DNA of 6,413 bases from Candidatus Micrarchaeia archaeon (GTDB taxonomy: Archaea; Micrarchaeota; Micrarchaeia; Burarchaeales; JAVZCV01), in the NCBI GenBank assembly GCA_038874215.1, contig JAVZCV010000036.1, positions 1 through 6,413 of the forward strand, read 5' to 3'. The notes beneath the pieces are model-generated. The model was not told the origin of the DNA and did no database searches. It was given only the letters and a program-made list of their open reading frames with translations. A program made the position numbers and the translations under genes. Shown piece after piece: positions 1 to 6,413 of this stretch. Numbering within the stretch: position 1 is the stretch's first letter; each line of letters starts with the position of its first letter.

Positions 1-1542
1 GATAACTGAGTTTTTAGACTCTTCCTCTAATTCCTTTAACACTTGATGGACATCGGATATTGTGAAATGGGATGAGATTGAAAAAATGTCCGTATCCTTT
101 TCTATAACCAAACCGGAGAGGAGACGTTCATACGTGCTGCCTGCCTTGGTAAGGCCTTTTAGGATTTTGATGGTGCCATCTACCGTATCTGCAATTTTAT
201 CTGCGCATTTCAGACCCTCGCATGTAGATGCCATAGTAATGTTTATGTCGCCGTCTTTTTTATCAAAAGAAGAAACGATGAAGGTTATATTAAAATCAGG
301 GGTGTCATTCTGTGGTATGCTACGGCCGTTTATGAAATAGAAAAGCATGCCGTTTTCGTTTGATTTTGCTCGCAATCGCTTGAAGTCTGAATTTTCAAGG
401 ATTGATTTTTTATTGCCGTCAGACACATCAAGGATGTTTTTTATGTTGGTTGGCGCTTCTTTTTCAGTCACAAAAAGCACGGAATCGTCTTTTATAAATA
501 CTAATGAAAAAACAGTAGGAGTATCATAAGTAGCTTTAAGGCTGTATGTATGGATGGTGTGGGGCCCGTGGGCAATTTCGGTTAATTTGACATTGTTGGC
601 TGTCGTATAGGTGAAAAAAGCCTCTTTGCTTATGCCGCCTTCAATAAAAATTGCAAAGTAATTGAAGGCACCGATTTGCTGTAAGAAGGTAGAAGGGGCT
701 ATGAAATTGTCGCTTGAAGGAGCAGAGACGGTTTTTGGAACATCAGTATTTATTTCTCCGAAAAAGACCAGTCTGGAGACATTGCTCGCAGAAACAAAAG
801 AAATGTTTCTGCTAATCTCATTTAGGATCTCATCAACACTCCTGTTTGTTGTATTCTTTATGTAATCTTGAATGTCTTTGTCATTAAGCATTTTTTGTGT
901 GTTTATTTGAAGTAGGATGGTAGCATTTTCTGGCACAATGGCAAGATAGGATTTCTGCTGGGGTGCAAAGAGGGATTGGAGAAAACCGAAAACAACGAAC
1001 AGAAACAAGCCAAGCAGTAGTACGACGACTAAACCGATAAAAAGCGCCTTTTTGTTATCGCCTGCCAAAAAAGCAGATAATTTGTCCTTTACTTCTTGGA
1101 ATGGGCTTTTACTTTCCTGTGCTTCTGTTTGCATAACGGATACGGGCTTATCGCCAAAAGCCCCGCCAGTCCATTTAGGACCGAAATCCGCTTTTCCCTC
1201 CTCAACTTTACTTTCTTCAAACATGGGTTTTTCAGCCGTCTGAGTATAACCATATCCGAGAGGCATCTGCTCTTCTTTTTTTTCTTCTCTTTTCCACCAT
1301 AGATCCCCAGCTCCGATGGCTTCATCCCGTATGCCTGATTCTTTTTCTCCTTCGTGTGAAGGAGTCGGTTCAGGAGCAGGAATGACTCTCGCTTTTTCTC
1401 TTTCCGATAGCGCTATTCGTATCCCTTCATTAACTTCGTCCTTTGGCCAACCCTTATCAAGTAGCGCTTTTCTTATTTCTTCATCCGAATAACCAAGATC
1501 AAGGCATTTTCTTACATAATCCAACAATATTTCGCTTACCAT
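1..1542 (-). CDS. Large single-pass membrane/surface protein (partial, 3' end beyond window start; at least 514 aa)
   Basis: Hand-translated: open from ATG at 1542 (preceded by SD-like GGTGGAG) to position 1 with no stop. Absent from the ORF track. Begins MVSEILLDYVRKCLDLGYSDEEIRKALLDKGWPKDEVNEGIRIA, then a charged low-complexity linker, one TM helix (ALFIGLVVVLLLGLFLFVVFGFL, about aa 166-188) and a long C-terminal domain with 8 N-X-S/T sequons. Confidence 0.9.
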   Translation of the reverse strand, partial: MVSEILLDYVRKCLDLGYSDEEIRKALLDKGWPKDEVNEGIRIALSEREKARVIPAPEPTPSHEGEKESGIRDEAIGAGDLWWKREEKKEEQMPLGYGYTQTAEKPMFEESKVEEGKADFGPKWTGGAFGDKPVSVMQTEAQESKSPFQEVKDKLSAFLAGDNKKALFIGLVVVLLLGLFLFVVFGFLQSLFAPQQKSYLAIVPENATILLQINTQKMLNDKDIQDYIKNTTNRSVDEILNEISRNISFVSASNVSRLVFFGEINTDVPKTVSAPSSDNFIAPSTFLQQIGAFNYFAIFIEGGISKEAFFTYTTANNVKLTEIAHGPHTIHTYSLKATYDTPTVFSLVFIKDDSVLFVTEKEAPTNIKNILDVSDGNKKSILENSDFKRLRAKSNENGMLFYFINGRSIPQNDTPDFNITFIVSSFDKKDGDINITMASTCEGLKCADKIADTVDGTIKILKGLTKAGSTYERLLSGLVIEKDTDIFSISSHFTISDVHQVLKELEEESKNSVI

Positions 1543-1558
1543 ATCTCCACCCAAAAAT

Positions 1559-2185: not shown

Positions 2186-2689
2186 TCACAAACCTATGAA
2201 ATTCCTGTTTCCCCTGTCAAACAATTTTTTTTCCCTCCTTCCGCTATCGTGAATTTTAACAACTTCGCCCACGAAGATAGTATGGTCGCCCGTTCCTATG
2301 CTGGCTACGACCTTGCATTCCATGTTGGCCATGCATTCTTTTATGAGCGGGGGTTTAACGCAATCAGCCTTCATTGGCGTTAGCTTTGAGAATTTGTCCG
2401 TGTCTCTGCCGCTCGTCGTACCACAGAAGAGCGCTTCCTCAACCATATTCTCGGAGGGTATGCCAAGCACGAACTCTCTCGTCTCACTTATGGATTTGTG
2501 GCTGTATCTCGTGTTCCCGACACATATTGCCACCATGAAAGGATTGAATGAGGCGGGCATCGCCCACGCAAGTGTTATTATGTTGGCTTTGCCTTCTTTG
2601 TTTACGCTACTCACAAGAACAACCTGCGCTGGATAAAGCCAGTGGTACGGTTTTTCGGCGTAGTTGTATTCAAAGTCGGTTTCAGACAT
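2186..2689 (-). CDS. Flavin reductase-like (DIM6/NTAB, flavoredoxin-type) FMN-binding split-barrel protein
   Basis: Family-typical segments: LYPAQVVLVSS, NIITLAW, RYSHKSI, CGTTSGRDTDKF, MECKV and GDHTIFVGEV. Confidence 0.9.
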   Translation of the reverse strand: MSETDFEYNYAEKPYHWLYPAQVVLVSSVNKEGKANIITLAWAMPASFNPFMVAICVGNTRYSHKSISETREFVLGIPSENMVEEALFCGTTSGRDTDKFSKLTPMKADCVKPPLIKECMANMECKVVASIGTGDHTIFVGEVVKIHDSGRREKKLFDRGNRNFIGL

Positions 2690-3467
2690 GCTCTCCCTTT
2701 ATGCCCAACAGTATAAGTTTTTTTTCCAAATCTTCTTTAAGTTTTTCGGCTATGAAGTGCTTTGTGTATGCGTCTCCTTTTGCTGCGATTGATATCTTCG
2801 CTGATAGGAGACGCGCAATTTTTCCGCGCACTTTCTTCGGGGACATGCTTATGTATGGATGCTTAAATATTATTCCGTGTTTAGGTGGCTTTGTGTGTTT
2901 TCTCAGATGCTTGAAAAGCGCTTTCTCGGCTCCCATAACCTGAATTCTGCTCGCCGACATTCGTGCGAGTTTTTCTATGCTGCCTGCCTTGGCGATGAGC
3001 TCCGCTGTAATAGCAGGGCCTACTATGTAAGATGTGTTGGGGGCAACATCTGATGCAAGCTTCTCCTCGTATTCGGAAAGTTTCTTTCTAATTTCGTAGA
3101 GGGATAGGATGAGTTTTGCGAGCTCTTTCATCTGCTCTATATCATCTGGCTCAAATTTAGCGCCGAGGCTCTTAGATGCGCTATTTGCTATCTCATGCGC
3201 TTTTTTTGAACCAACAACTTTTGCGAGTTCTTCTTCATCTATTGAATCCCTGTTTATCGCAAGAACGAGCTGTGGAAACTTCTCGCCCTCTGCCTTCAAT
3301 TCGGGGAAATAGAGGCCGTACCATTCTCGCAACCTTGTGCTGAGCAGGTTTATCGTTTTATCAAGCTCTGAGACTGCGCCGACTGTATGTATCAGAAGCC
3401 TGTCCCTCTCGCCAAGAGCTACTGAAACGGCTTCGCGAGTTCTTCTCAAAATCTCGTCTCGGTCCAT
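2682..3467 (-). CDS. nop5: Nop5 (aNOP56/58) box C/D RNP scaffold protein, coiled-coil plus Nop domain, short N-terminus
   Basis: Signature segments LDKTINLLSTRLREWYGLYFPEL, APN, IQVMGAEKALFKHL, PPKHGIIF and RGKIARLL. ATG at 3467 has SD GGGGTGA, and an in-frame TGA lies immediately upstream. Confidence 0.93.
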   Translation of the reverse strand: MDRDEILRRTREAVSVALGERDRLLIHTVGAVSELDKTINLLSTRLREWYGLYFPELKAEGEKFPQLVLAINRDSIDEEELAKVVGSKKAHEIANSASKSLGAKFEPDDIEQMKELAKLILSLYEIRKKLSEYEEKLASDVAPNTSYIVGPAITAELIAKAGSIEKLARMSASRIQVMGAEKALFKHLRKHTKPPKHGIIFKHPYISMSPKKVRGKIARLLSAKISIAAKGDAYTKHFIAEKLKEDLEKKLILLGIKGEHV

Positions 3468-3551: not shown

Positions 3552-4016
3552 TTATGAACTCTGGTATATCTCAATTGTTCCGTTTCTGTTTCTTATGAAA
3601 ATGTTGCGAAGCGTGTTATTGAGTGTATAGCCGTATTCGGTGCCGTTTTGCAGGTATGCGAAATTGGTGGGTGAAACTGTGATGTTTTTTGTGAGAATTG
3701 GCAAAGATATATCGGATTGGTTTTCTTCATAGTAAATATCAACCGAGCCAGACAGCGTGTTTATTACGAGCGTGTATGTCATGAAACCTTCTGCGCGTGA
3801 TGGGATGGTGAAGTTACGCATATAGCCGTCTCCCGCGCGCACGGCATTGTCTATTTCTTCCGCAACCTGAAAGCCCAATTCCTCGGCTATGCCTTTTGTC
3901 TGCATGCGCGCATCCCGCATTGCATCGCTTGTAAAGAGTGCTAACAAAACCACAAAAGCAAGCACAACAACGCCAAATATCACTAGGTATTCAACGGCAC
4001 TCTGAGCTCTATCCAT
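3552..4016 (-). CDS. Class III signal peptide-containing (type IV pilin-like) protein
   Basis: Starting from ATG 4016 gives MDRA|QSAVEYLVIFGVVVLAFVVLLALF: basic residue at -2, Q at +1, E at +5, then a hydrophobic helix. Six N-X-S/T sequons follow. The ORF track start (4031) is 5 codons earlier. Confidence 0.85.
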   Translation of the reverse strand: MDRAQSAVEYLVIFGVVVLAFVVLLALFTSDAMRDARMQTKGIAEELGFQVAEEIDNAVRAGDGYMRNFTIPSRAEGFMTYTLVINTLSGSVDIYYEENQSDISLPILTKNITVSPTNFAYLQNGTEYGYTLNNTLRNIFIRNRNGTIEIYQSS

Positions 4017-4023
4017 CAAACCA

Positions 4024-4518
4024 CTATCCAAAAGGAGGATAGACTACTACACAGCGAGGCGTAGAGGCTCCGCATGTGCCCGCATCGTCCATTGCTTCTA
4101 TTGTAAGGTGGTAGGTGCCGCTCTTGCTGAATCTTTCTGCATAAGTGCTATCAGCCCATTTTGTAGGGACTAATGTAAGAGCTACAACGTCGCTCTTACC
4201 CGAGGGTGTGAGCACTCTTATTACCACCTCTCTCCCGCTTGTTATTGATGAGCCTCCGCTCGCCTCCTGTCCTATTATTATTTTCTCCGTATTCTGCGGT
4301 ACTGAAATTAGAAGATTCATTTTTGCTGGCGGGCCCATAGCGCCGACTATATCTATCGCGTTCTTTATCCTTTTTGCCGTGTTTTCTGCTTGCGCTATCG
4401 CTATTTGCTGTGAGGAATTGCTCACTTGTAGATAAACCAAAAAGATGACAGGTAGTATTACGGCAACGGCAAACGCTATCGTTATCAGGAGTTCGGTGCT
4501 GACCTGTGCTTTTACCAT
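4024..4518 (-). CDS. Class III signal peptide-containing (type IV pilin-like) protein
   Basis: Starting from ATG 4518 gives MVKA|QVSTELLITIAFAVAVILPVIFLVYL (Q+1, E+5). The longer ORF-track start at 4677 overlaps the upstream gene and would bury the signal peptide. Confidence 0.85.
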   Translation of the reverse strand: MVKAQVSTELLITIAFAVAVILPVIFLVYLQVSNSSQQIAIAQAENTAKRIKNAIDIVGAMGPPAKMNLLISVPQNTEKIIIGQEASGGSSITSGREVVIRVLTPSGKSDVVALTLVPTKWADSTYAERFSKSGTYHLTIEAMDDAGTCGASTPRCVVVYPPFG

Positions 4519-4542
4519 ACAATCCCAATGGTTATCGTTCCG

Positions 4543-4560
4543 TATAATATTAACCTTTTG
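4543..4560 (-). promoter_or_regulatory. Putative BRE-TATA promoter for the pilin-like gene pair (short or no leader)
   Basis: The minus strand reads CAAAAGG-TTAATATTATA about 25-42 nt upstream of ATG 4518, overlapping the stop codon of the upstream gene. Confidence 0.5.
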
Positions 4561-4891
4561 CAGTCCAGATTTCGTTAAGCGCGGATTGCATTGCGTATAT
4601 GGTATAAAGTGTGAGAGGGGGTATTGCAAAAATAACCAATAACGCCCGTGTGTCAAGGCCGTTAAAGCCGCTGTCAATTGAGAGGTGGTCTATCTCGTTT
4701 AGCGTTTTCCAAACCACAAAAAGGTTTAATATGGGGATTATAAATACGAGCGTGCGGAGGAGGGGGTTGATATCAAGCGATGCATACTCTGAAATTTCTT
4801 TATTTATTTTATAATACCAGAATATAGCGTAGAGCCCAAAGGTTGAGATGATAAAGGCAATAACCCTCATTGGGTCAATCGGCTCTCCCAC
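4550..4891 (-). CDS. Small multi-pass membrane protein, DUF4234-like
   Basis: Three hydrophobic segments with the pattern STFGLYAIFWYYKINKEI ... IPILNLFVVWK ... YAMQSALN, resembling DUF4234 from memory. GTG start with GGGGT upstream. Confidence 0.75.
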   Translation of the reverse strand: MGEPIDPMRVIAFIISTFGLYAIFWYYKINKEISEYASLDINPLLRTLVFIIPILNLFVVWKTLNEIDHLSIDSGFNGLDTRALLVIFAIPPLTLYTIYAMQSALNEIWTAKG

Positions 4892-4920: not shown

Positions 4921-4938
4921 ATTTTATATAATTTTGTT
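4921..4938. promoter_or_regulatory. Bidirectional TATA box between divergent genes
   Basis: Palindromic TTATATAA at 4924-4931. It lies about 23-30 nt before the Lrp ATG (4954) and about 33-40 nt before the GTG at 4891 on the other strand. Confidence 0.55.
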
Positions 4939-4953
4939 TATCATAATTGAAAC

Positions 4954-5262
4954 ATGATAACTGCGATAGTATTAATTGAAGCGGAGGTTGGTGCGGCAAT
5001 AGATGTCGCAGAGAAGGTTGCAGCATTACCAGAAGTGCGAGAAGCGTACACTGTTGCAGGAAATTACGATGTGGTGGCAATAGTATGCGTTAAGGAATTT
5101 GAGGAAACGAGCCGAGTAGTGGTTGGGAAGATATCAAACATACCGGGAGTGAAGAAAACAACGACGCTTTTTGCTTTTGAATGCTTCTCCAGATATGACG
5201 TTGAGAGGATGTGGGGCGTAGGATTTGAGGAGAAGATAAACCAAAAAACACCCTCGCAATAG
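4954..5262 (+). CDS. Stand-alone Lrp/AsnC ligand-binding (RAM) domain protein, no HTH
   Basis: MITAIVLI...LPEVREAYTVAGNYDVVAIV...IPGVKKTTTLFAF matches the AsnC C-terminal domain. The protein is 102 aa with no N-terminal helix-turn-helix. Confidence 0.9.
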   Translation: MITAIVLIEAEVGAAIDVAEKVAALPEVREAYTVAGNYDVVAIVCVKEFEETSRVVVGKISNIPGVKKTTTLFAFECFSRYDVERMWGVGFEEKINQKTPSQ

Positions 5263-5277
5263 TGGATGCTTGCAGAA

Positions 5278-5312
5278 ACCGGATTAGAGGGGTTCGATTC
5301 CCTTCCCCAGCT
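5278..5312 (+). tRNA. tRNA-Cys 3' half (positions 38-73)
   Basis: A38, CCGGA anticodon-stem strand, TTAG variable loop, AGGGG-TTCGATT-CCCTT T arm, CCCCAGC acceptor strand and T discriminator. No encoded CCA. Confidence 0.93.
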
Positions 5313-5337
5313 TTAAACTTGAAAAGACGTCGTCTGG

Positions 5338-5373
5338 GCTGGGGTGGCAGAGTGGCTATGCGTCCGGCTGCAG
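5338..5373 (+). tRNA. tRNA-Cys 5' half (positions 1-37)
   Basis: GCTGGGG acceptor strand, T8, D arm GCAG-AGTGGCT-ATGC with the conserved GG, TCCGG stem strand and CT-GCA-G loop. Confidence 0.93.
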
Positions 5374-5400
5374 AACAAAATTTTAGTGGGGGGCGTCATA

Positions 5401-5844
5401 TTGGATTTAATAGATATAGTAGAGGAGAAAAAAGGGTGGTTGGCGCTTGTTATTCCTGCACTTATATATTTGTCTTTCTACAACAGGAATGATCCATTAA
5501 TAATAACAACTTTGTTCTCATACGTAGTAGGGATTGCGTTTTTAACCATAGAGTTAGAGAAAATAAAGAAGGAGATAAGCAGAAATAAGGATAGATTGAA
5601 GGATGATATTCGCGTTTTGCAGTTTGTATTTTCTAAGAAATCAGTTCTTGCTTCAGGTATGTTGTTGCTAATATGTTGCCTCGTAACTTTATGGTATCTA
5701 TACCAGCGTATTTATGAATTTTGGGCTTACGCGTTTTTTATATCTCTTATTTTGGCATTTGTGTATGCGGTGATTATGGCAGTTGTTAAAGTTGGTGTTC
5801 GGAATATTAAGAAGATAGTAGATAATTCTAATAATAATCAATAG
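5401..5844 (+). CDS. Hypothetical membrane protein (about 4 TM), low GC
   Basis: Open frame with hydrophobic segments. TTG 5401 follows a G-rich SD-like run (5388-5393), and GTG 5386 is an alternative. The ORF-track start (5344) falls inside the tRNA 5' half. No family recognised. Confidence 0.7.
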   Translation: MDLIDIVEEKKGWLALVIPALIYLSFYNRNDPLIITTLFSYVVGIAFLTIELEKIKKEISRNKDRLKDDIRVLQFVFSKKSVLASGMLLLICCLVTLWYLYQRIYEFWAYAFFISLILAFVYAVIMAVVKVGVRNIKKIVDNSNNNQ

Positions 5845-6413
5845 TTGCCGATTAGTAGAGCTTCGGCTTTTTGAAGAAGTTTTCTTTTTTGTTTAATGAA
5901 GACGCTGGTGGTGTGGATTTCGCTTTCTATCCGCTTTATGTCTGCAAGCAGATTGGCAGGTTTTGTCCCGCTTCTACGATTAATTACATTTGCGGGTGTT
6001 AGAGCTTTAAGTTCGCTATCTTCAATTTTAACACTCGCCCGCTTGCTTATCTCGTCGGCATTTATGGAATTGAGTGGTTTTCCCTCTNNNNNNNNNNCGC
6101 CTTTTTGTGCGAGCAAATCGGCAAGGTCCGTCGCCAAAGTATAAACGCTGGTGGCTTCGGCCATTCTCGCCTTGTTGAATTTTGAGCGTTTAAGTATTTC
6201 GTTTAGTATTAGAAGAGATGACTTCGCGATTTCAACACTCCTCATGAGCGGCTTTTTTGTTTCTTGCGTGTCTGCATTGTGCCCAGAGATGAGCGATTTG
6301 GTTGTAGAAAGAATGGAGAAAAGCCCCCCATGCACTCTTGATGTTCTTGCCCGCATGATTTCAAGCGCATCGGGGTTCTTTTTCTGGGGCATTATTGAGG
6401 AAGTGGTGCAGAA
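5838..6413 (-). CDS. argH: Argininosuccinate lyase, C-terminal part (5' end beyond window)
   Basis: The frame is open to the window edge and reads FCTTSSIMPQKKNPDALEIMRAR, the fumarase/ASL superfamily signature in its ArgH form. It also contains the ArgH-typical ATDLADLLAQKG. Confidence 0.9.
   Translation of the reverse strand, partial: FCTTSSIMPQKKNPDALEIMRARTSRVHGGLFSILSTTKSLISGHNADTQETKKPLMRSVEIAKSSLLILNEILKRSKFNKARMAEATSVYTLATDLADLLAQKGXXXXEGKPLNSINADEISKRASVKIEDSELKALTPANVINRRSGTKPANLLADIKRIESEIHTTSVFIKQKRKLLQKAEALLIGNY
6088..6097. other. Assembly gap (10 N) within argH
   Basis: Ten Ns at the point where ArgH normally has the PFRxAHxxVG helix, so the true gap is probably longer than 10 nt. 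Confidence 0.95.

What the first reader, a model, noticed from the sequence alone, without database searches (positions are those of the whole stretch)
5267..5377. Outer flanks form a relaxed bulge-helix-bulge splice motif at 37/38
Seen: leader GCAG (5272-5275) pairs with C32-U33-G34-C35 (5368-5371) to form the 4-bp central helix. It is followed by the 3-nt bulge A5276-A5277|A5278(38) and the anticodon stem, which is the canonical geometry. The other bulge is A36-G37|A5374, but its closing helix is weak: A5375-U5271, extendable to C5376-G5268 and A5377-U5267 only by bulging bases. Known: relaxed BHL/hBH motifs are handled by broad-specificity archaeal EndA forms (alpha2beta2 in Crenarchaeota and Nanoarchaeum, epsilon2 in ARMAN). 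Inference: the motif is evidence that the permuted gene is functional, and it predicts that the host has a broad-specificity endonuclease.
Basis: partly seen in the sequence, partly recalled or inferred. Interest (0 to 1): 0.75.

Follow-up and report, generated by a model that had tools for sequence, protein, structure and literature searches.

The report
Half splice motif on permuted tRNA-Cys

Summary
The window holds a circularly permuted tRNA-Cys(GCA) gene: 3' half at 5278-5312, a 25-nt spacer, then the 5' half at 5338-5373. ARAGORN and Rfam miss it as it stands. The joined halves give a clean tRNA-Cys cloverleaf. No other place in the window does so: all 130 hits among 770,064 trial joins lie at this locus.

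The leader GCAG (5272-5275) pairs with C32-C35 (5368-5371) in the exact register, followed by the 3-nt bulge AAA and the anticodon stem. Pair probability is >=0.99 and the bulge is unpaired with probability 1.0.

The second bulge and its closing helix are not supported. The proposed pairs cost 5-6 kcal/mol and have probability 0.0. The immediate flanks pair no better than shuffles (746 of 1000). A36 and G37 are instead predicted to pair with U5271 and U5270.

The motif is therefore the relaxed hBH/BHL form, as in algal type II permuted tRNAs.

Neighbouring proteins are closest to Micrarchaeota (DPANN), the lineage of the broad-specificity epsilon2 EndA. The host's own EndA was not seen.

Verdict: a real feature and a new member of a known kind.

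The parts
4923..4930 (+). Consensus archaeal TATA box of the upstream AsnC-type gene (4954-5262). It may also be the promoter of a co-transcript that carries the tRNA.
   Evidence: It is the only exact TTTAWATA match in the window (sequence). No match with <=1 mismatch lies on the + strand between 5200 and 5340.
5232..5240 (+). Weak TATA-like AAGATAAA, a possible own promoter that would start transcription near 5262-5267. Uncertain.
   Evidence: Read directly. It does not match TTTAWATA within 1 mismatch. The spacing argument is inference from the two leaderless genes nearby.
5251..5257 (+). 5' strand of a possible distal helix with 5386-5392. Relevant only if the transcript begins upstream of it.
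   Evidence: Pair probabilities are 0.87-0.95 in 200-290 nt contexts. Significance is marginal: 46 and 88 of 1000 shuffles.
5262..5277 (+). Leader. The 5' end is not mapped. It is removed by the cut after 5277.
   Evidence: Geometry of the motif.
5272..5275 (+). Leader strand GCAG of the 4-bp central helix. U5271 and U5270 can extend it to 6 bp.
   Evidence: Pair probabilities 0.995-0.999. The extension pairs have 0.89 and 0.59.
5276..5278 (+). Canonical 3-nt bulge AAA. The predicted cut is between 5277 and 5278 (position 38).
   Evidence: Unpaired probability 1.0 for all three bases.
5278..5312 (+). 3' half of tRNA-Cys, positions 38-73: anticodon-stem 3' strand, 4-nt variable loop, T arm (TTCGATT loop), acceptor 3' strand and U73. 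No CCA is encoded.
   Evidence: The joined halves give tRNA-Cys(gca) in ARAGORN. They align without gaps to archaeal tRNA-Cys genes at 61-65% identity.
5313..5337 (+). 25-nt intervening sequence that joins the 3' end to the 5' end. It would be removed by RNase P and tRNase Z. It holds a small hairpin (5325-5328 with 5332-5335) and a TTTAAA at 5312-5317.
5338..5373 (+). 5' half of tRNA-Cys, positions 1-37: acceptor 5' strand, D arm, anticodon-stem 5' strand and the loop CUGCAG with anticodon GCA. The predicted cut is after G37 (5373).
   Evidence: The Rfam tRNA model matches positions 1-36 here as a 3'-truncated hit of 12.6 bits, E = 1.7.
5368..5371 (+). C32-U33-G34-C35, the tRNA strand of the central helix.
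5374..5385 (+). Trailer AACAAAAUUUUA. The run of four T at 5381-5384 is a possible weak terminator. It forms no closing helix with the leader.
5386..5392 (+). 3' strand of the possible distal helix with 5251-5257.

Best explanation
This is a working, circularly permuted tRNA-Cys(GCA) gene of type II (junction 37/38) in a DPANN archaeon related to Micrarchaeota.

Proposed pathway:
1. One transcript carries leader, 3' half, 25-nt spacer, 5' half and trailer.
2. The two halves fold into the cloverleaf. The acceptor stem is capped by the spacer.
3. The leader GCAG pairs with C32-C35. Together with the anticodon stem and the AAA bulge, this makes the h-B-H part of a bulge-helix-bulge motif.
4. The other cut site (G37|A5374) lies at the open end of that helix. 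The motif is therefore the relaxed hBH/BHL form.
5. A broad-specificity splicing endonuclease cuts after 5277 and after 5373.
6. RtcB joins G37 to A38, giving a 96-nt circle (5278-5373).
7. RNase P and tRNase Z excise the spacer, and CCA is added.

Shown here: the permuted layout, the cloverleaf, and the helix and bulge in the exact register.
Inferred: the single transcript, the enzymes, the order of steps and the circular intermediate.
For: - ARAGORN finds no tRNA in the window as it stands, and Rfam finds nothing at E<=1.
- The joined halves are called tRNA-Cys(gca), with a 7-bp acceptor stem, a 5-bp anticodon stem, a T arm, a 3-bp D stem and U73.
- Of 770,064 permuted joins over both strands, 130 gave a tRNA. 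All 130 lie at this locus.
- The joined sequence aligns without gaps at 61-65% identity to five ARAGORN-called archaeal tRNA-Cys genes from L001, L017 and L045. All share the loop CUGCAGA.
- Central helix probability is >=0.995 and the bulge is unpaired with probability 1.0. Both are present in the unconstrained MFE folds of all five stretches tried.
- Chance of the 4-mer at the fixed register is 0.4-1.3%.
- In the one other permuted-layout tRNA-Cys met here (L022, a bacterium), the leader pairs at only 1 of 4 positions in that register (read). The helix is therefore not an automatic by-product of the layout.
- The hBH form at 37/38 is what green-algal and nucleomorph type II permuted tRNAs have (Soma 2014, section 8 read whole; table and legend passages).
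- ARMAN-2 epsilon2 EndA cuts an hBH pre-tRNA-Cys in vitro (Fujishima 2011, passages).
- Named hits among the best 120 listed for the Nop56-like protein are mostly Micrarchaeota; the 120 span 44-57% identity.
Against: - No expression data.
- No relative with the same layout was found. Conservation is therefore untested.
- No consensus TATA box lies in front of the leader, and the terminator is only four T.
- The whole pre-tRNA folds only modestly better than shuffles: z = -1.46, with 18 of 200 shuffles as good.
- A36 and G37 are predicted to be paired, which a strict enzyme would not accept.
- The host's EndA, RtcB and any second tRNA-Cys gene are unseen.
- In the 489-nt co-transcript context the helix probability drops to 0.58.
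- L022 shows that an intact permuted cloverleaf can exist without any BHB-like leader, in a bacterium whose tRNA array also holds a normal tRNA-Cys. Intact halves alone therefore do not prove function.
Confidence: 0.72

Rival explanations
1. It is a decaying relic of a tandem tRNA-Cys duplication and is not used. The leader's complementarity comes for free: the anticodon loop CUGCAG is its own reverse complement, so the leader UUGCAG would be the leftover anticodon loop of a lost upstream 5' half, with two A inserted.
For: - Leader 5271-5275 (UGCAG) is identical to positions 33-37 at 5369-5373.
- Tandem tRNA-Cys genes exist in archaea: 2 copies in L017 and 3 copies with 29-nt spacers in L045. 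Those spacers are close to the 25-nt spacer here.
- Alignments anchored at the junction give marginal similarity of the flanks to the missing halves. For the trailer, 258 of 4963 random segments score as well. For the leader, 192 of 4964 do.
- L022 shows a permuted layout without a BHB.
Against: - Local alignments of the flanks to the halves are not significant: 277 and 588 of 2000 shuffles.
- Both retained halves are intact, with 12 of 12 Watson-Crick inter-half stem pairs.
- A plain relic would put CUGCAG directly next to A38. Here two extra A create exactly the 3-nt bulge.
- The relic origin and present function are not exclusive. This is the published origin model for working permuted genes (Soma 2014, passages).
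Confidence: 0.13
2. The two halves are adjacent split-tRNA genes that are transcribed separately and joined in trans, rather than one permuted transcript.
For: - A TTTAAA lies in the spacer at 5312-5317, about 21-26 nt before G1.
- Split tRNAs joined at 37/38 with nearby halves are known in Aeropyrum and Thermosphaera (Chan 2011, passages).
Against: - The spacer is only 25 nt.
- TTTAAACT does not match TTTAWATA within one mismatch.
- By the spacing seen for the two neighbouring genes, the start would fall a few bases inside the acceptor stem (inference).
- The 3' half has no terminator of its own.
- The flanks have no long complementary extensions.
Confidence: 0.06
3. It is a strict hBHBh' motif, closed by the reader's helix A5375-U5271, C5376-G5268 and A5377-U5267, and any archaeal EndA could cut it.
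For: The three pairs are chemically possible.
Against: - They are non-contiguous and cost +5 to +6 kcal/mol.
- Their probability is 0.0.
- The flank duplex is no better than 746 of 1000 shuffles.
- The definition asks for a flanking helix of more than two base pairs (Soma 2014, Fig. 2 legend).
Confidence: 0.03
4. It is an assembly artefact of a short metagenomic contig.
For: The window is a whole 6413-bp contig and holds a run of N at 6088-6097.
Against: - The break would have to fall at 37/38 on both sides and also create the GCAG-AA leader.
- The upstream ORF ends cleanly at 5262, and the downstream gene has its own TATA box and start codon.
- The N run lies 700 nt away.
Confidence: 0.03

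Closest known systems
Type II (37/38) circularly permuted tRNA genes of prasinophyte green algae and the Bigelowiella nucleomorph. These include tRNA-Cys(GCA) in O. lucimarinus (26-bp spacer), O. tauri (38 bp) and M. pusilla (12 bp). Source: Soma 2014, Table 1 and section 8.
   Same: 3' half upstream of the 5' half, junction at 37/38, hBH-type motif at the junction, no encoded CCA, a spacer of similar length (25 nt here), and the same isoacceptor.
   Different: The host here is an archaeon, not a eukaryote (aNOP56, archaeal TATA boxes). Any link must be convergence. The enzyme would be an archaeal EndA rather than the Sen complex with its ruler mechanism.
Permuted tRNA-iMet and tRNA-Tyr of Thermofilum pendens, the only archaeal permuted tRNAs in the papers I saw (Chan 2011, passages).
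   Same: An archaeal, single-locus permuted gene with a BHB-type junction and a host lineage with a broad-specificity EndA.
   Different: In T. pendens the junction is at 59/60 in the T loop, the spacers are 7 and 1 nt, CCA is encoded, each gene also carries a 37/38 intron, and the host is a crenarchaeon with (alpha-beta)2 EndA.
ARMAN-2 pre-tRNA-Cys(GCA), whose 13-nt hBH intron is cut by epsilon2 EndA (Fujishima 2011, passages).
   Same: The same isoacceptor, the same relaxed motif class, and the same wider lineage as the window's nearest protein relatives.
   Different: It is a colinear gene with an intron at 59/60, not a permuted gene at 37/38.
Split tRNAs joined at 37/38, such as tRNA-Asp of Aeropyrum pernix and Thermosphaera aggregans, and the Nanoarchaeum halves (Chan 2011).
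   Same: Two half-molecules joined at 37/38 by EndA and a ligase.
   Different: Those halves are separate transcripts. That the Nanoarchaeum halves carry long complementary extensions is recalled, not read here. In the window the halves are 25 nt apart on one strand, and the flanks show no such extension.

Membership tests
Circularly permuted tRNA gene, type II | The 3' half lies upstream of the 5' half on the same strand, separated by a short spacer. | tested here: met
   5278-5312, then 25 nt, then 5338-5373.
Circularly permuted tRNA gene, type II | The joined halves give a complete cloverleaf with the junction at 37/38. | tested here: met
   ARAGORN calls tRNA-Cys(gca) on the join. All 130 hits among 770,064 control joins lie at this locus.
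Circularly permuted tRNA gene, type II | The leader and trailer form a BHB or BHB-like motif at the junction. | tested here: met
   The relaxed hBH form only.
Circularly permuted tRNA gene, type II | One transcript from an upstream promoter, with a terminator after the 5' half. | tested here: inconclusive
   There is no consensus TATA box before the leader. The nearest is at 4923-4930, in front of the upstream gene. Only four T follow at 5381-5384.
Circularly permuted tRNA gene, type II | A circular RNA intermediate and a mature, charged tRNA. | not testable with these tools
   This needs RNA from the organism.
Strict hBHBh' bulge-helix-bulge motif | Two 3-nt bulges separated by a 4-bp helix. 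| tested here: not met
   The first bulge is met. In the second, A36 is unpaired with probability 0.04 and G37 with 0.25, while A5374 is 0.97.
Strict hBHBh' bulge-helix-bulge motif | Both flanking helices have more than two base pairs (Soma 2014, Fig. 2 legend). | tested here: not met
   h is the 5-bp anticodon stem. For h' only one contiguous pair is possible, with probability 0.0. The flank duplex is -0.4 kcal/mol, and 746 of 1000 shuffles do as well.
Relaxed hBH / BHL motif | A flanking helix, one 3-nt bulge and a 4-bp central helix, with the other bulge or helix missing. | tested here: met
   Anticodon stem, AAA bulge and the GCAG:CUGC helix.
Substrate of a broad-specificity EndA (epsilon2 or (alpha-beta)2) | The host encodes such an enzyme, with its specific loop. 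| not testable with these tools
   No EndA gene lies in the window. There is only taxonomic proximity to Micrarchaeota.
Split (trans-spliced) tRNA | Each half has its own promoter, and the flanks carry long complementary extensions. | tested here: not met
   The spacer is 25 nt and has no TATA match. The flanks have no significant duplex.

The most novel reading that the evidence does not exclude
This is the first circularly permuted tRNA gene with a 37/38 junction in any archaeon, and the first permuted tRNA in DPANN. It serves as the host's working tRNA-Cys and matures through a 96-nt circle made by an epsilon2-like EndA. Genes of this kind, which standard tRNA finders cannot see, would account for part of the 'missing' tRNAs of DPANN genomes. 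It may have arisen from a tandem tRNA-Cys pair without any ancestral intron, because the self-complementary anticodon loop CUGCAG needs only a 2-nt insertion to make the h-B-H half motif.
Probability: 0.4. Interest if true: 0.72.

Novelty: new member of a known kind. Interest (0 to 1): 0.6.

Why it matters
In the papers I could search, permuted tRNA genes in Archaea are known from one species only (T. pendens), and there only at 59/60. Reviews up to 2025 still cite that single case.

A 37/38 permuted tRNA-Cys in a Micrarchaeota-like archaeon would extend the phenomenon to DPANN. It would reproduce in Archaea the layout that is otherwise typical of green algae.

It would also give a natural permuted substrate for the epsilon2/DPANN endonucleases. 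And it would bear directly on the remark that incomplete tRNA sets in DPANN genomes hide undiscovered disrupted genes (Kaneta 2018).

In practice it shows that ARAGORN and Rfam miss such genes altogether.

Tried and rejected
1. Relatives. My single genome-contig scan used a generic pattern for permuted tRNA-Cys.
- Of 119 matches, only 7 had >=6 of 7 acceptor pairs.
- The archaeal hits were a tRNA-Thr/Cys array (L001), tandem tRNA-Cys copies (L017, L045) and two chance matches in coding sequence (L021, L058).
- No archaeal permuted relative and no self-hit appeared. Because the scan was cut short, this says nothing about absence.
- Covariation would in any case have little power, because C32-C35 are nearly fixed in tRNA-Cys.

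2. Rfam on each half placed at a stretch end. The 5' half gave a truncated tRNA hit of 12.6 bits (E = 1.7). The 3' half gave only T-arm-sized matches. Both are weak, as expected when the stems cannot be scored.

3. Flanks as decayed outer halves. Local alignments were not significant, and anchored alignments were marginal. This is left open as a weak lead.

4. Closing helices. The immediate flanks form none. The distal helix 5251-5257 with 5386-5392 is marginal. The alternative 5265-5270 with 5392-5397 appears in one MFE fold but has probability <=0.045 in wider contexts.

5. Own promoter. None matches the consensus.

6. Supplements of Fujishima 2011, which hold the ARMAN tRNA lists, could not be read. 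I therefore could not compare ARMAN tRNA-Cys sequences.

The contigs of the closest protein relatives could not be inspected for a syntenic copy.

8. Searches for prior reports turned up no paper describing a permuted tRNA in DPANN or at 37/38 in Archaea. The library lacks most subscription journals.

Full report
**What is there.** Window 5278-5373 holds the two halves of a tRNA-Cys(GCA) in swapped order.
- 3' half: 5278-5312, covering positions 38-73. It comprises A38, the 3' strand of the anticodon stem, a 4-nt variable loop, a T arm with loop TTCGATT, the 3' acceptor strand and U73.
- Spacer: 25 nt, 5313-5337.
- 5' half: 5338-5373, covering positions 1-37. It comprises the acceptor 5' strand, U8, the D arm, the anticodon-stem 5' strand and the loop CUGCAG.

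ARAGORN finds no tRNA in the window as it stands. Rfam finds nothing at E<=1. When a script joins the halves, ARAGORN calls tRNA-Cys(gca) with a regular cloverleaf.

As a control I made every join of a 36-nt piece with a 35-nt piece lying 0-60 nt upstream, on both strands. That gave 770,064 joins. 130 gave a tRNA, and all 130 lie at this one locus; the minus-strand hits are the same gene read as its complement.

The joined sequence aligns without gaps, at 61-65% identity, to five ARAGORN-called archaeal tRNA-Cys genes from L001, L017 and L045. It shares G1-C2, U8, the loop CUGCAGA, the T loop and GCU at 71-73 with them. The role of U73 and the GCA anticodon as cysteine identity elements is recalled knowledge, not tested here.

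**The motif: what holds.** GCAG (5272-5275) pairs with C32-U33-G34-C35 (5368-5371) through four Watson-Crick pairs. A5276-A5277-A5278 follow as a 3-nt bulge, and then comes the anticodon stem.
- All five unconstrained folds, of stretches from 111 to 161 nt, contain this helix and bulge, as does strand folding.
- In the ensemble the four pairs have probability 0.995-0.999, and the three A are unpaired with probability 1.0.
- The same holds in contexts of 200 and 290 nt. In a 489-nt putative co-transcript the probability falls to 0.58.
- The register is fixed in advance by the cloverleaf, because the helix must end three bases before position 39. Only one 4-mer is therefore tested. GCAG makes up 0.43% of the window's 4-mers, and the wobble-tolerant set 1.3%.
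- The cut after the second base of each bulge is the accepted geometry of the motif. The '3-4-3' form is stated in Fujishima 2011; the cut position is recalled.

**The motif: what does not hold.** The second bulge (A36-G37|A5374) and its closing helix are not supported.
- Adding A5375-U5271 to the cloverleaf plus central helix raises the energy from -30.4 to -25.4 kcal/mol. A variant with a 2-nt bulge gives -27.3. The A5375-U5271 pair has probability 0.0.
- The best duplex between 5262-5271 and 5374-5385 is -0.4 kcal/mol, and 746 of 1000 shuffles do as well or better.
- U5271 pairs with A36 (0.89) and U5270 with G37 (0.59). The helix then has 6 bp (-32.1 kcal/mol), and the second cut site sits at its open end.
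- By the definition in Soma 2014 (Fig. 2 legend), flanking helices must have more than two pairs. This is hBH (BHL), not hBHBh'.
- If the transcript is longer at both ends, CCCUCGC (5251-5257) can pair with GUGGGGG (5386-5392), closing a roughly 6x6 internal loop. Its probability is 0.87-0.95 in mid-sized contexts. As a duplex it beats shuffles only marginally, 46 and 88 of 1000.

**Transcription.** The upstream gene (4954-5262, + strand) is an AsnC-type ligand-binding domain without an HTH. It has the window's only exact TTTAWATA, at 4923-4930, about 30 nt before its ATG.

The downstream membrane-protein gene probably starts at TTG 5440, behind a TATA-like TTTAATAG at 5406. This start is my reading, not a tested fact.

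Before the tRNA leader there is only a weak AAGATAAA at 5232-5239 and no match within one mismatch. After the 5' half there are four T (5381-5384). The tRNA may therefore have a weak promoter of its own, or it may ride on the 3' end of the upstream mRNA. I cannot tell which.

**Host.** The window encodes an aNOP56-type protein. The best 120 non-self hits listed span 44-57% identity. Those that carry names are mostly 'Candidatus Micrarchaeota/Micrarchaeia archaeon', with single Parvarchaeota, Burarchaeum, Bilamarchaeum and ainarchaeum entries.

A second protein, the phosphoesterase, has hits of at most 50% identity. Few are named: an Altiarchaeales MAG, an unclassified 'bacterium' MAG and one weak Gaiellaceae (bacterial) hit.

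NCBI places Micrarchaeota (now Microcaldota) in Nanobdellati, that is DPANN. The host is thus a DPANN archaeon with no close sequenced relative.

Epsilon2 EndA with broad specificity is known from ARMAN-1/-2 and Mancarchaeum, while DPANN EndA architectures vary (Kaneta 2018, passages). ARMAN-2 epsilon2 EndA cuts an hBH pre-tRNA-Cys in vitro (Fujishima 2011; also used as the BHL substrate in the 2025 NAR paper).

**Relatives.** It is unique in the window, with none of 200 shuffles matching.
- A script found 119 matches in them. Acceptor complementarity of >=6 of 7 occurred in 7.
- Combined with >=4 of 5 anticodon-stem pairs at the canonical offset, 3 matches remained: two in L045 and one in L022.
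- L045 (Methanocorpusculum) and L017 (Methanoregula) are tandem copies of ordinary tRNA-Cys genes. L001 is a tRNA array. L021 (a Micrarchaeota MAG) and L058 are chance matches in coding sequence, with no tRNA found by ARAGORN.
- No archaeal relative with the permuted layout was recovered. Because the scan was truncated, this is no evidence of absence.

**A natural contrast.** L022 comes from the actinobacterium Plantactinospora veratri and lies inside an array of 16 tRNA genes. It carries a 3' half, a 6-nt spacer and a 5' half of a tRNA-Cys(GCA).
- ARAGORN accepts the join as a cloverleaf, while the contiguous DNA gives no tRNA.
- Its leader pairs with C32-C35 at only 1 of 4 positions in the BHB register (read).
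- A conventional tRNA-Cys lies 800 nt away.

This shows two things. A permuted layout can occur without the splice motif, so the motif in the window is not a by-product. And intact halves alone do not prove use.

**Origin.** CUGCAG (positions 32-37) is its own reverse complement. Any copy of the anticodon loop is therefore also its pairing partner. Leader UUGCAG+AA looks like a former loop with C32 changed to U and two A inserted.

This fits the published model of duplication followed by loss of the outer halves (Soma 2014), and the tandem tRNA-Cys genes seen in L017 and L045. But similarity of the outer flanks to the lost halves is not significant locally (277 and 588 of 2000 shuffles) and only marginal when anchored at the junction (258 of 4963 and 192 of 4964). 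I keep it as a lead only.

**Comparison and novelty.** The layout, junction, motif class, isoacceptor and spacer length match the type II permuted tRNA-Cys genes of Ostreococcus and Micromonas (Soma 2014, Table 1). The host, however, is archaeal.

The only archaeal permuted tRNAs in the papers I saw are the two of T. pendens, at 59/60 (Chan 2011). Later papers still cite only those.

Three full-text searches found no report of a permuted tRNA in DPANN or at 37/38 in Archaea:
- 24 papers held the terms, 22 listed;
- 46 papers, 40 listed;
- 5 papers.

I read listings and passages, not whole papers, and subscription journals are largely absent from the library. I therefore rate this a new member of a known kind.

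**Verdict.** The best explanation is a working type II permuted tRNA-Cys with an hBH motif, at confidence about 0.7. Expression, the host's enzymes and conservation remain untested.

Noticed in passing
L022 1986-2064 (+), Plantactinospora veratri NZ_JAZGQL010000039.1: A bacterial tRNA array holds a permuted tRNA-Cys(GCA): 3' half, 6-nt spacer, 5' half. ARAGORN accepts the join as a cloverleaf with 7-, 4-, 6- and 5-bp stems, while the contiguous DNA gives no tRNA. The leader has no BHB-type pairing (1 of 4). Leader CCACGA (1976-1981) is complementary to trailer TCGTGG (2070-2075). A normal tRNA-Cys lies at 2874-2942. I saw no report of a permuted tRNA in Bacteria in the papers read. It could be a relic or something new.
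   Followed up: partly
L017 1966-2133 (-) and L045 1950-2223 (+): Ordinary tRNA-Cys(GCA) genes stand in tandem in Methanoregula (2 copies) and Methanocorpusculum (3 copies, 29-nt spacers). This is the kind of precursor that the duplication-and-loss model for permuted genes needs.
   Followed up: partly
window 5368-5373 and 5270-5275: The anticodon loop CUGCAG is self-complementary (it is a PstI site). Leader UGCAG (5271-5275) is therefore identical to positions 33-37 as well as complementary to positions 32-36.
   Followed up: partly
window 2682-3467 (-): The Nop56/Nop5-like protein has only 261 aa. It matches just positions 127-373 of the 417-position aNOP56 model, so the N-terminal part is missing, and no fibrillarin gene lies beside it. 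Most of the relatives listed have similar lengths (about 255-290 aa), so the short form looks typical of the lineage.
   Followed up: partly
window 4954-5262 (+): A stand-alone AsnC/Lrp ligand-binding domain protein (102 aa, no HTH) ends 10 nt before the tRNA leader helix. It carries the only consensus TATA box in the window, so the tRNA may be co-transcribed with it.
   Followed up: partly
window 5312-5317: A TTTAAA sits in the spacer about 21-26 nt before G1 of the 5' half. It could be a second promoter (the split-gene reading) or simply AT-rich spacer.
   Followed up: no
window 6088-6097: A run of 10 N lies inside the argininosuccinate-lyase C-terminal fragment (5838-6413, - strand).
   Followed up: no
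window 1-1554 (-), 3552-4031 (-), 4024-4677 (-): Three ORFs (518+ aa, 159 aa and 217 aa) have no Pfam or NCBIfam match at E<=0.01.
   Followed up: no
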